Below, in pieces: positions 29,151 to 50,985 of a stretch of DNA of 64,000 nt. The stretch lies in NCBI RefSeq assembly GCF_001677475.2, contig NZ_CP015229.1; one strand, given 5' to 3'. The position numbers and the translations under genes were made by a program. Every line of letters begins with the position of its first letter. The stretch's first letter is position 1. This DNA comes from Escherichia coli (lineage in GTDB: Bacteria > Pseudomonadota > Gammaproteobacteria > Enterobacterales > Enterobacteriaceae). The notes below the pieces were generated by a model, which was not told where the DNA came from, did not search any database, and saw only the letters and a program-made list of their open reading frames with translations.

Positions 29151-29238
29151 AAAATAATATCGAGATATTTTATATACTGATTTTTTTATTATTCGCAAAC
29201 TCAGTAATAAGCTTTACTAATATATTGCAGCTAAACTG

Positions 29239-29262
29239 CTTACCCTGAATATTCAGGGTAAG
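29239..29262. other. Perfect 24-bp palindrome between the maeB stop and the eut promoter region
   Basis: cttaccctgaa-ta-ttcagggtaag is exactly self-complementary; no U-run follows on either strand. Confidence 0.5.
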
Positions 29263-29280
29263 CGTGAGAGTTAAAAAAAA

Positions 29281-43892: not shown

Positions 43893-43899
43893 GCAATAA

Positions 43900-43931
43900 A
43901 AAAGGCGACATGCCAATGTGTCGCCTTTTTC
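43900..43931. terminator. Bidirectional rho-independent terminator (acrD on plus, ypfM on minus)
   Basis: aaaaaggcgaca-tgccaatg-tgtcgccttttt: perfect stem flanked by an A-run and a T-run. Confidence 0.75.
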
Positions 43932-49028: not shown

Positions 49029-49892
49029 TTAAATGCTTTTACCAAAAGTATTGCATTGTGCCGGATCGCCGCTGTCGAAACCACGTTTAAACCAGCTGTA
49101 GCGTTGCTGAGAAGTACCATGAGTGAAACTGTCTGGTACTACTCGCCCCTGACTTTGCTGTTGTAAACGGTCATCGCCGATGGCCTGCGCCGCGTTCAGC
49201 GCCTCTTCCAGATCGCCGGTTTCCAGAACACCTTGCTGCTGCATACTATGCCCCCAGACACCGGCAAAACAGTCGGCCTGGAGTTCCATACGCACAGATA
49301 AGCGGTTCACTTCCGCCTGCGTCGCGTTTTGTTGCAGTTGACGAACTTTCGGCTCGATGCCTAACAGTTTCTGCACATGATGACCGACTTCATGGGCGAT
49401 AACGTACCCCTGGGCAAAATCGCCATCCGCGCCAAGTTTGTCTTTCATGTCATCATAGAAAGAGAGATCGATATAAACCGTGCCATCCGCCGGGCAATAG
49501 AACGGTCCCATAATGGACTGGCCCGCCCCGCAGCCGGTGCGCGTCATTCCACGGTACATGACCAGCTTCGGTTGCTGATAGGTTTTACCCATCTTCTCGA
49601 ATTGCTGTCCCCAGGTGTCTTCCGTGGTTGCCAGAATCACCGAAGTGAATTTTGCGGCTTCGTCTTCATTAGGACTAATTGACCGTGTTGATTGCTGTTG
49701 GGAAACCGGCTGTCCGGTCATCAACCCGGTTAAATCAACGCCATAGTAGCCTGCAACCAGCACGACTATCAGTAAAATCAGCCCGCCTTTACCGCTTGGC
49801 AGGCGAAAACCGGGACCGCCCATAGACGGACCACCAGAGCTGTTGCGCCTGTCTTCAACATTATCACTTTCACGTCGCCCTTGCCAACGCAT
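49029..49892 (-). CDS. ypfJ: Predicted zinc metallopeptidase (HExxH) with N-terminal membrane anchor
   Basis: 287 aa with HEVGH motif at residues 167-171; matches YpfJ. Confidence 0.9.
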
Positions 49893-50006
49893 AGATACCT
49901 CAACAATATATTCATTATAGAAATGATCGTAGGTGGTTCAGAGGAAGATTACCACAGGAAAGCGGGATGAAATGGCGGAGGAATGAGCGTTCAATGCACA
50001 TCTTCC

Positions 50007-50033
50007 GAGAGCGGTTGTCTTGCCGTGCCAGCT
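50007..50033. other. Perfect 11-bp-stem hairpin just downstream of purC
   Basis: tcttgccgtgc-cagct-gcacggcaaga; no U-run follows on the minus strand, so not a canonical intrinsic terminator. Confidence 0.5.
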
Positions 50034-50059
50034 GCACGGCAAGATGATGAACAGAAAAA

Positions 50060-50773
50060 TCAGTCCAGCTGTACACCCAGGCGGCGGGCGACGGCTTCAT
50101 AGGCTTCGATCAGGCCACCGAGGCTCTGGCGGAAACGGTCTTTGTCCATTTTCTCCAGCGTTTCTTTGTCCCACAGGCGGCTGCCGTCCGGGGAGAACTC
50201 ATCGCCCAGTACCACTTCACCTTTGTACAGGCCAAACTCCAGTTTAAAGTCGACCAAAATCAGACCAGCATCATCGAACAGTTGTTTCAGCACGTCGTTC
50301 GCTTTGTAGGTCAGCTCTTTCATACGCGCCAGGTTCTCTTTGCTCACCCAGCCAAAGGTTTCGCAGTAAGATTCGTTGACCATCGGATCGTGCATGGCGT
50401 CGTTTTTCAGGAACAGATCGAACAGCGGCGGGTTCAGCTCAATACCTTCTTCGATTCCAAGACGTTTCACCAGAGAGCCAGCAGCACGGTTACGCACGAC
50501 ACACTCAACCGGCACCATATCCAGCTTTTTCACCAGACATTCGGTATCGGAGAGCAGACGCTCCATTTGAGTCGGGATACCCGCTTCAGCCAGTTTGCTC
50601 ATAATGAAGTAGTTGAACTTGTTGTTCACCATACCTTTGCGATCAAACTGCTCAATGCGCGCGCCATCCCCTGCTGACGTATCATTGCGGAATTCGAGCA
50701 CCAACAGGTCCGGGTTTTCCGTGCTGTATACGGTTTTCGCTTTACCACGATACAACTCAGCTTGCTTTTGCAT
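50060..50773 (-). CDS. purC: Phosphoribosylaminoimidazole-succinocarboxamide (SAICAR) synthase
   Basis: 237 aa from [22 protein letters not shown]; matches PurC. Confidence 0.95.
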
Positions 50774-50952: not shown

Positions 50953-50978
50953 AAAAAAGGGCCGGATGACTCCAGCCC
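50953..50978 (-). terminator. Rho-independent terminator downstream of bamC
   Basis: gggccgga-tgac-tccagccc hairpin, followed on the minus strand by a U-run (complement of aaaaaa at 50953-50958). Confidence 0.5.
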
Positions 50979-50985
50979 TATATTT

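What the first reader, a model, noticed from the sequence alone, without database searches (positions are those of the whole stretch)
50007..50033. Strong hairpin downstream of purC without a U-tract
tcttgccgtgc-cagct-gcacggcaaga forms a perfect 11-bp GC-rich stem about 27 bp after the purC stop. On the minus strand the U-run comes before the hairpin rather than after it. It may act as a 3' stabilising structure or Rho-assisted stop rather than a canonical intrinsic terminator, and lies in the ypfJ upstream region where it could also serve as an operator.
Basis: seen in the sequence. Interest (0 to 1): 0.3.

Follow-up and report, generated by a model that had tools for sequence, protein, structure and literature searches.

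The report
Hairpin marking the purC mRNA end
This is a real, strongly conserved RNA hairpin just after the E. coli purC gene that marks where purC messages end in living cells; it is an ordinary example of a known class of U-tract-less 3'-end hairpins, not a new kind of element.

Summary
The hairpin is real, but it lies at window 50018..50044 (not 50007..50033), 15 nt after the purC stop. It has a perfect 11-bp stem and a 5-nt loop, and folds at -20.1 kcal/mol (0 of 200 shuffles fold as well). The window is E. coli: tmcA-ypfJ-purC-bamC-dapA, all on the minus strand.

Published full-length transcript data (SMRT-Cappable-seq, M9 medium) place a purC transcript end at K-12 2596861 (window 50016), 2 nt past the stem. 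Of 88 reads from the purC promoter, 58 end there and 19 read through into ypfJ.

There is no U-tract after the stem. A very C-rich, G-poor 78-nt stretch follows (C/G 27/8, above 99.9% of windows here). This matches the known class of protective stem-loops at the 3' ends of Rho-terminated E. coli mRNAs, but Rho dependence itself was not tested here.

No stem variant was seen among 3,805 E. coli genomes. E. albertii has one G-C to G.U change. Other genera have unrelated hairpins at the same position.

The operator idea is not supported.

Side finding: about 30% of E. coli genomes replace the 67-bp hairpin segment with a vapBC toxin-antitoxin cassette that carries its own hairpin.

Interest is low.

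The parts
50018..50044 (-). The hairpin. The gene-strand RNA is UCUUGCCGUGC-AGCUG-GCACGGCAAGA: an 11-bp perfect stem with a 5-nt loop, -20.1 kcal/mol.
   Evidence: It is single copy per genome. No stem variant was seen in 3,805 E. coli genomes.
50016..50016 (-). Mapped in-vivo 3' end of the purC transcript (K-12 NC_000913.3 position 2596861), 2 nt after the last paired base.
   Evidence: Yan et al. 2018 (PMC6131387), Supplementary Data 1, sheet M9_TTS, row '2596861 2597781 reverse 88 58 19 8 1077 novelTTS b2476'. The coordinate conversion (window = K-12 minus 2546845) comes.
50045..50059 (-). 15-nt linker between the purC stop and the stem (UUUUUCUGUUCAUCA). The U-run at 50055..50059 lies 5' of the hairpin.
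50060..50773 (-). purC coding sequence (SAICAR synthetase, 237 aa). The stop codon is 50060..50062.
   Evidence: RefSeq annotation of identical loci.
49914..49991 (-). C-rich, G-poor 78-nt tract (27 C, 8 G, 20 YC dimers) starting 26 nt after the hairpin. It is a candidate Rho-utilisation (rut) region and overlaps the ypfJ promoter region.
   Evidence: its C/G ratio exceeds 99.98% of all 78-nt windows on both strands of the 64-kb window. The rut function is inferred, not shown.
49918..49939 (-). Interval bounded by the two mapped ypfJ transcription start sites (K-12 2596784 = window 49939; 2596763 = window 49918), both downstream of the hairpin.
   Evidence: Yan et al. 2018, Supplementary Data 2.
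49029..49892 (-). ypfJ coding sequence (zinc metallopeptidase family). This is the gene downstream, reached by about 22% read-through transcripts.
49985..50051 (.). 67-bp segment containing the hairpin. It is the alternative allele to a ~0.8-kb vapBC cassette found in about 30% of E. coli genomes.

Best explanation
The hairpin is the structure that defines the 3' end of the purC mRNA. Transcripts that start at the purine-regulated purC promoter mostly end at the base of this stem-loop, and a minority continue into ypfJ. The stem is followed by CAACCGCU rather than a U-tract, and the mapped end is only 0-2 nt past the stem, so the end is most likely not made by classical intrinsic termination. 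The most likely route has three steps. RNA polymerase passes the hairpin. Rho loads on the untranslated C-rich, G-poor RNA just downstream and terminates diffusely in the spacer or early ypfJ. The 3'-to-5' exonucleases (PNPase, RNase II) then trim back until the stable stem stops them. The result is a precise, protected purC 3' end, and it insulates ypfJ-tmcA, which have their own promoters, from purC regulation. What is shown: the hairpin, its position, the in-vivo 3' end, partial read-through, the composition of the downstream tract, and purifying selection on the stem. What is inferred: Rho loading, the true release sites, and exonuclease trimming.
For: (1) The in-vivo end. With SMRT-Cappable-seq in M9, 58 of 88 reads from the purC start site 2597781 end at 2596861 (window 50016), 8 end within 50 bp downstream, and 19 read through with a median of 1077 nt. 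The same table places the canonical bamC terminator end within 1-2 nt of the Term-seq position, so the coordinates are reliable.
(2) There is no U-tract: 1 U in the 8 nt after the stem, and the terminator scan does not call it.
(3) The downstream 78 nt have C/G = 27/8, the 99.98th percentile of the window.
(4) Dar & Sorek 2018 report that steady-state 3' ends of Rho-dependent E. coli transcripts sit immediately after stable stem-loops. Those stem-loops lack U-rich tails and upstream A-tracts and are followed by C>G sequence, and the ends are generated by PNPase/RNase II trimming.
(5) Selection on the stem. Among 3,805 E. coli genomes, variation falls in loop positions 1-2 and the flanks, and no stem variant was seen. 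E. albertii has one C-to-U change that converts G-C to G.U.
(6) Position is conserved but sequence is not. 41 Enterobacterales spacers each have a strong hairpin, starting 2-40 nt after the purC stop (most within 8-25 nt), with unrelated sequences. In the alignable Enterobacter-type group, 7 of 11 pairs show double-sided changes (0 of 500 shuffles reach this), and the G.U cells pair only on the gene strand.
(7) The alternative vapBC allele supplies a different 11-bp hairpin (-19.3 kcal/mol) at the same position.
Against: Rho dependence has not been shown for this site. Adams et al. 2021 list no Rho termination region and no curated Term-seq 3' end at 2596xxx in LB or M63, while neighbouring controls are present. 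That bicyclomycin experiment used LB; from general knowledge, PurR represses purC in rich medium, so its power here is low. The absence of an M63 Term-seq end is still unexplained. The C-rich tract overlaps the ypfJ promoters, so its composition may have another cause. SMRT-Cappable-seq cannot tell termination from 3' processing. The cross-genus hairpins were picked by folding energy, which biases the pairing statistics.
Confidence: 0.55

Rival explanations
1. The hairpin is itself the termination signal. It would be a non-canonical, U-tract-less terminator (possibly assisted by NusA or NusG) at which RNA polymerase releases the transcript at or just after the stem.
For: 66% of purC-promoter reads end there, a larger fraction than at the canonical bamC terminator in the same table (255 of 909). 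Only 8 reads end in the next 50 bp. In several other genera the post-purC hairpin does carry a U-rich tail (for example L028, L029, L037, L043), so an intrinsic terminator is the ancestral or common solution at this position.
Against: Only 1 U occurs in the 8 nt after the stem, and the tail CAACCGCU would form a strong G/C-containing hybrid. The mapped end lies 0-2 nt from the stem, whereas intrinsic release normally occurs several nt into the U-tract; the neighbouring bamC end is 4-6 nt past its stem. By established knowledge, E. coli RNAP needs the U-tract for efficient intrinsic termination.
Confidence: 0.2
2. Transcription does not stop here. purC-ypfJ read-through transcripts are cut by an endonuclease (for example RNase E) in the single-stranded spacer, and the upstream fragment is trimmed back to the hairpin, which acts only as an exonuclease barrier.
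For: Read-through purC-ypfJ and dapA-ypfJ transcripts exist. The method captures primary 5' ends but any 3' end, so it cannot exclude processing. The A/U-containing single-stranded sequence after the stem (GGAAGAUGUGCAUUGAAC) could be cut.
Against: No cleavage data were found. The unusually C-rich, G-poor composition right after the hairpin is the signature tied to Rho loading in the published class, not to RNase E sites. ypfJ has its own start sites, so a processing route is not needed to express it.
Confidence: 0.15
3. The palindrome is a DNA operator for a dimeric regulator of ypfJ (or purC).
For: It is a perfect 11-bp inverted repeat with a 5-bp spacer located upstream of ypfJ. The arms are invariant in E. 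coli.
Against: Its centre is about 92 and 113 nt upstream of the mapped ypfJ start sites. The sequence is replaced by unrelated hairpins in other genera and by a different hairpin in 30% of E. coli, while ypfJ and its promoter region are retained. The substitutions keep RNA pairing through G.U, which would be A-C mismatches in terms of half-site symmetry. The 56-nt segment holding the palindrome occurs once per genome.
Confidence: 0.03

Closest known systems
Protective 3' stem-loops of Rho-dependent E. coli transcripts (Dar & Sorek 2018, Nucleic Acids Res 46:6797, PMC6061677)
   Same: A stable stem-loop sits immediately before a precise steady-state 3' end. There is no U-rich tail and no upstream A-tract. 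C>G sequence follows directly downstream. The element is not a REP element. The stem size and folding energy are like those of intrinsic terminators.
   Different: For purC, bicyclomycin-dependent read-through and PNPase/RNase II-dependent trimming have not been shown. I could not check whether purC is in their supplementary tables, because those files are not held.
Canonical intrinsic (Rho-independent) terminator, for example the bamC terminator in the same window (50958..50979, minus strand)
   Same: A G+C-rich hairpin lies shortly after a stop codon and marks a transcript end. Read-through is partial.
   Different: There is no U-tract (1 U in 8, against UUUUUUCU at bamC). The 3' end is 0-2 nt from the stem rather than 4-6 nt. 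A U-run lies 5' of the hairpin where canonical terminators often have an A-tract.
REP/BIME elements acting as mRNA 3' stabilisers
   Same: An extragenic palindrome forms an RNA hairpin that blocks 3' exonucleases downstream of a gene.
   Different: This hairpin is single copy per genome, with no other locus matching. REP elements are a dispersed repeat family.

Membership tests
Canonical intrinsic terminator | G+C-rich stem-loop shortly downstream of a gene | tested here: met
   11-bp stem with 7 G-C pairs, -20.1 kcal/mol, 15 nt after the purC stop.
Canonical intrinsic terminator | U-rich tract immediately 3' of the stem | tested here: not met
   The tail is CAACCGCU, with 1 U in 8. The consensus scan, which needs at least 5 T in 8, does not call it.
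Canonical intrinsic terminator | Factor-independent release by RNAP in vitro | not testable with these tools
   This needs in vitro transcription.
Protective stem-loop at the 3' end of Rho-dependent transcripts (Dar & Sorek class) | Dominant in-vivo 3' end immediately downstream of a stable stem-loop | tested here: met
   The published transcript end 2596861 equals window 50016, 2 nt past the stem, and 58 of 88 reads end there. It is not listed in the Adams 2021 curated Term-seq tables.
Protective stem-loop at the 3' end of Rho-dependent transcripts (Dar & Sorek class) | No U-rich tail and no upstream A-tract | tested here: met
   The upstream sequence is U-rich, not A-rich.
Protective stem-loop at the 3' end of Rho-dependent transcripts (Dar & Sorek class) | C-over-G enrichment (rut-like) directly downstream | tested here: met
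   27 C against 8 G in the 78 nt starting 26 nt after the stem, the 99.98th percentile of the window.
Protective stem-loop at the 3' end of Rho-dependent transcripts (Dar & Sorek class) | Bicyclomycin- or Rho-dependent read-through past the 3' end | tested here: inconclusive
   No Rho termination region is listed at 2593-2598 kb on the minus strand in Adams 2021 Supplementary file 2. That experiment used LB; from general knowledge, PurR represses purC in rich medium. The Peters 2012 and Dar & Sorek tables are not held.
Protective stem-loop at the 3' end of Rho-dependent transcripts (Dar & Sorek class) | 3' extension in pnp or rnb exonuclease mutants | not testable with these tools
   This needs RNA-seq of the mutants at this locus.
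REP / BIME repeat | Dispersed multicopy family sharing a consensus | tested here: not met
   One place per genome in 3,805 genomes. I read the second 'place' as the palindrome matching itself on the other strand; this was inferred, not verified.
Any curated RNA family (Rfam 15) | Match to a covariance model | tested here: not met
   The only hit is a chance-level snoRNA match inside purC (E = 4.9).
Transcription-factor operator | Sequence-specific conservation of half-sites at a position suited to promoter control | tested here: not met
   The sequence is not conserved across genera. It is replaced in 30% of E. coli. It lies about 92-113 nt upstream of the ypfJ start sites. Protein binding itself was not tested.

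The most novel reading that the evidence does not exclude
The U-tract-less hairpin is a true release site. E. coli RNA polymerase would terminate at or within about 2 nt of the stem with roughly 66-75% efficiency, with no U-tract and without Rho. That would be a hairpin-only (or NusA/NusG-assisted) terminator in the organism where the U-tract requirement was established. E. coli would then keep two interchangeable terminator alleles at this locus, one of them delivered by a vapBC cassette.
Probability: 0.1. Interest if true: 0.55.

Novelty: new member of a known kind. Interest (0 to 1): 0.15.

Why it matters
The finding gives purC, a heavily used purine-pathway gene, a defined 3' boundary. It also explains how PurR-regulated purC transcription is largely, though not fully, insulated from ypfJ-tmcA. 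It is a clean, single-copy, non-REP example for testing the 'Rho terminates downstream, exonucleases trim back to a hairpin' model. E. coli offers two natural alleles (hairpin A against vapBC plus hairpin B) that could be compared directly. None of this changes current concepts.

Tried and rejected
- **Rfam scan of 49500..50500 at E <= 10:** nothing relevant.
- **Consensus promoter/terminator scan:** it does not call the hairpin, and it also misses the mapped ypfJ promoters.
- **Sigma-54 promoter idea:** the gene strand contains TGGCACGGCAAGACA, but the -12 element (TTGC) is absent at the right spacing. I rejected it by eye.
- **REP or other repeat family:** rejected, because the hairpin is single copy.
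- **Term-seq confirmation:**
  - The Adams 2021 tables contain no purC 3' end, with positive controls present.
  - The TERMITe supplements do not mention purC.
  - The Dar & Sorek 2018 and Grünberger 2022 supplements are not held.
  - Peters 2012 is not held.
- **'purC terminator' literature search:** it returned only false hits, with 'purc' matching 'purchased'.
- **Literature on vapBC at purC-ypfJ:** none found.
- **Homology between hairpins:** I considered whether the K-12 hairpin, the vapBC-allele hairpin and the Citrobacter hairpin are homologous, since they share a GCCG/CGGC core with flanking pairs swapped. The core is too short to establish homology, so I did not count these as compensatory changes.
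- **Protein and structure tools:** not used, because the feature is non-coding.

Full report
**What is there**

The window is Escherichia coli. The genes tmcA, ypfJ, purC, bamC and dapA all lie on the minus strand.

It lies at 50018..50044, which is 11 bases to the right of the stated coordinates.

The purC stop codon is at 50060..50062, so the stem starts 15 nt after the stop, not about 27. The ypfJ ATG is at 49892. On the gene strand the RNA reads UGA UUUUUCUGUUCAUCA [UCUUGCCGUGC AGCUG GCACGGCAAGA] CAACCGCUCUCGG. The U-run therefore precedes the hairpin, and only 1 of the 8 nt after it is U.

The hairpin folds at -20.1 kcal/mol, against -7.8 +/- 2.4 for dinucleotide shuffles (z = -5.2; 0 of 200 fold as well). 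It persists in the minimum-energy fold of the 81-nt context. Only three perfect hairpins of this size exist in the 64 kb, against 0.03 expected. It is not a chance feature.

No Rfam family matches. The consensus terminator scan ignores the hairpin, while it does find the canonical bamC terminator 900 bp away.

**Experimental evidence in the literature**

Window coordinates equal K-12 NC_000913.3 coordinates minus 2546845, so the hairpin is at 2596863..2596889.

Yan et al. 2018 (SMRT-Cappable-seq, PMC6131387) list in Supplementary Data 1, M9 sheet, the row '2596861 2597781 reverse 88 58 19 8 1077 novelTTS b2476'. This describes full-length primary transcripts from the purC promoter:
- 88 reads start at the purC promoter.
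- 58 of them end at 2596861 (window 50016), 2 nt past the last paired base.
- 8 end within the next 50 bp.
- 19 continue, with a median extension of 1077 nt, which carries them across ypfJ.

The same table puts the canonical bamC terminator end at 2597797. Term-seq by Adams et al. 2021 puts it at 2597798/9. The coordinates are therefore good to 1-2 nt.

Supplementary Data 2 of Yan et al. lists both a purC-only unit and a purC-ypfJ unit from that promoter. It also lists separate ypfJ start sites at 2596784 and 2596763 (window 49939 and 49918). The paper speaks of a 'dapA-ypfJ operon' variant. The hairpin therefore marks the main, but leaky, 3' boundary of purC mRNA, upstream of ypfJ's own promoters.

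Against this, the curated Term-seq tables of Adams et al. 2021 (LB at OD 0.4, LB at OD 2.0, and M63) contain no 3' end at purC, although neighbouring ends are present. Their bicyclomycin table lists no Rho region here. From general knowledge, PurR represses purC in rich medium, so the LB data have little power. The absence in M63 remains a caveat.

**Mechanism**

A 3' end 0-2 nt from a stem that is followed by CAACCGCU does not fit classical intrinsic termination.

The 78 nt that begin 26 nt after the stem (window 49991..49914) contain 27 C and 8 G. That ratio is higher than in 99.98% of all 78-nt windows on either strand of the 64 kb.

Dar & Sorek 2018 (PMC6061677) describe this architecture for Rho-dependent E. 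coli transcripts:
- The steady-state 3' ends are precise and sit immediately after stable stem-loops.
- The stem-loops lack U-rich tails and upstream A-tracts.
- C>G sequence, assigned as rut, follows downstream.
- The ends are produced by PNPase/RNase II trimming after diffuse termination further downstream.

I therefore favour that model for purC, with about 0.55 confidence for the specific Rho-plus-trimming route. My confidence is higher, about 0.85, that the hairpin defines and protects the purC 3' end by whichever route.

Two alternatives remain open. One is direct termination at the hairpin assisted by some factor. The other is endonucleolytic cleavage of read-through RNA followed by trimming. 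Both need experiments to exclude.

**Evolutionary evidence that the RNA stem is selected**

The 56-nt segment containing the hairpin occurs once per genome in 3,805 of 5,426 complete E. coli genomes. For the hairpin plus 4 nt on each side, the census is as follows:

| Allele class | Genomes | What differs |
|---|---|---|
| Identical to the window | 2,067 | nothing |
| Loop variant UGCUG | 1,652 | loop position 1 |
| One further change | 82 | in 3 of 3 sampled, loop position 2 (UACUG) |
| Other | 4 | in 1 of 1 sampled, G to C 4 nt outside the stem |

No stem variant was seen. By contrast, the 22 nt just 3' of the stem carry about 9 variable columns among nine Escherichia alleles. E. albertii has a single stem change, C to U, which turns G-C into G.U and still folds at -18.1 kcal/mol.

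Across Enterobacterales the purC-ypfJ order is conserved, with a spacer of about 120-170 nt. All 41 spacers analysed have a strong hairpin (-12.6 to -35.5 kcal/mol), most starting 8-25 nt after the purC stop (range 2-40 nt). The hairpin sequences are unrelated between genera. Their tails range from UUUUUUUU to none: 11 of 41 have at least 5 U in 8, and 21 of 41 have at most 3. Escherichia is the most U-poor and has the most C>G-skewed downstream tract.

In the one alignable group (Enterobacter, Leclercia, Pluralibacter, Pseudocitrobacter), 7 of 11 stem pairs show changes on both sides. Of the cells, 89.5% are paired, against 38-55% when the partners are slid. None of 500 shuffles reaches the observed value. 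The G.U cells pair only in gene-strand RNA. These hairpins were chosen by folding, so the statistic is supportive rather than independent proof.

This pattern, with position and structure conserved while sequence turns over, is what a transcript-end hairpin predicts. It argues against a sequence-specific operator. The hairpin centre also lies about 92 and 113 nt upstream of the ypfJ start sites.

**An unexpected polymorphism**

In 1,619 of the 5,426 E. coli genomes, the 67-bp segment at window 49985..50051, which includes the hairpin, is absent. A cassette of about 0.8 kb encoding VapB and VapC (RefSeq annotation) takes its place between purC and ypfJ. The GTDB E. coli representative carries it too (L004).

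The two alleles together account for 5,424 of the 5,426 genomes.

The cassette brings a different 11-bp hairpin 20 nt after the purC stop: UUUAGCCGGAG GGUA CUCCGGCUAAA, at -19.3 kcal/mol. Its tail, UGUCUUUG, is more U-rich. A hairpin directly after purC is therefore kept in both alleles.

Other genera carry unrelated insertions in the same spacer. I found no paper describing vapBC at this site.

**Verdict**

The element is an ordinary member of a known class, and its transcript end already sits in a published supplementary table. I therefore rate it as a new member of a known kind, with low interest (0.15).

The only reading with some surprise value is that this U-tract-less hairpin is itself an efficient release site for E. 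coli RNAP. I give that about 0.1 probability.

Noticed in passing
window 49985..50051; L001 1636..2460; L004: About 30% of complete E. coli genomes (1,619 of 5,426) replace this 67-bp segment with a ~0.8-kb vapBC toxin-antitoxin cassette between purC and ypfJ. The cassette carries its own 11-bp post-purC hairpin. The two alleles partition the species (5,424 of 5,426). No paper linking vapBC to this site was found.
   Followed up: partly
L031 (Siccibacter), L047 and L050 (Budvicia), L060 (Proteus), L022, L035, L044: spacer after purC: The purC-ypfJ spacer is enlarged by unrelated insertions in several genera. Examples are 1.6 kb with 311-aa and 144-aa ORFs, a 160-aa ORF, and 1.8 kb with 203-aa and 232-aa ORFs. 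This suggests a recurrent insertion point. The ORFs were not identified.
   Followed up: no
window 29238..29263: Another perfect 11-bp hairpin (GCTTACCCTGA atat TCAGGGTAAGC) lies 18 nt after the stop of the 759-aa minus-strand ORF (b2463). It has the same odd layout: a U-run (UUUUUUUU) 5' of the hairpin on the gene strand and none 3'. The published SMRT-Cappable-seq end for that gene (2576050 = window 29205) lies 33 nt beyond the hairpin.
   Followed up: partly
window 43899..43930: A perfect 12-bp hairpin flanked by an A-run and a T-run (AAAAAGGCGACA...TGTCGCCTTTTT) looks like a canonical bidirectional terminator. Adams 2021 Term-seq lists a strong 3' end at 2590726 (window 43881), annotated as antisense to acrD.
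   Followed up: partly
window 49914..49919 (minus strand): A perfect TATAAT lies 21 nt upstream of the ypfJ ATG, yet the mapped ypfJ start sites (window 49939 and 49918) do not fit it as their -10 element. Weaker -10-like hexamers (GGTAAT with an upstream TG; TACGAT) fit better.
   Followed up: no
window 49995..50010 (alignment A1, columns 64-75): The E. coli alleles fall into two haplotypes just 3' of the hairpin. In the ATCC 25922/IAI39 type the sequence CUCAU-AAG-AUGAG can form a small second hairpin, which the K-12/window type cannot.
   Followed up: no
K-12 2595784 (about window 48939), inside tmcA: The median read-through of 1077 nt from the purC end implies that many read-through transcripts stop about 90 nt past the ypfJ stop, inside the 5' part of tmcA. 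This was not examined.
   Followed up: no
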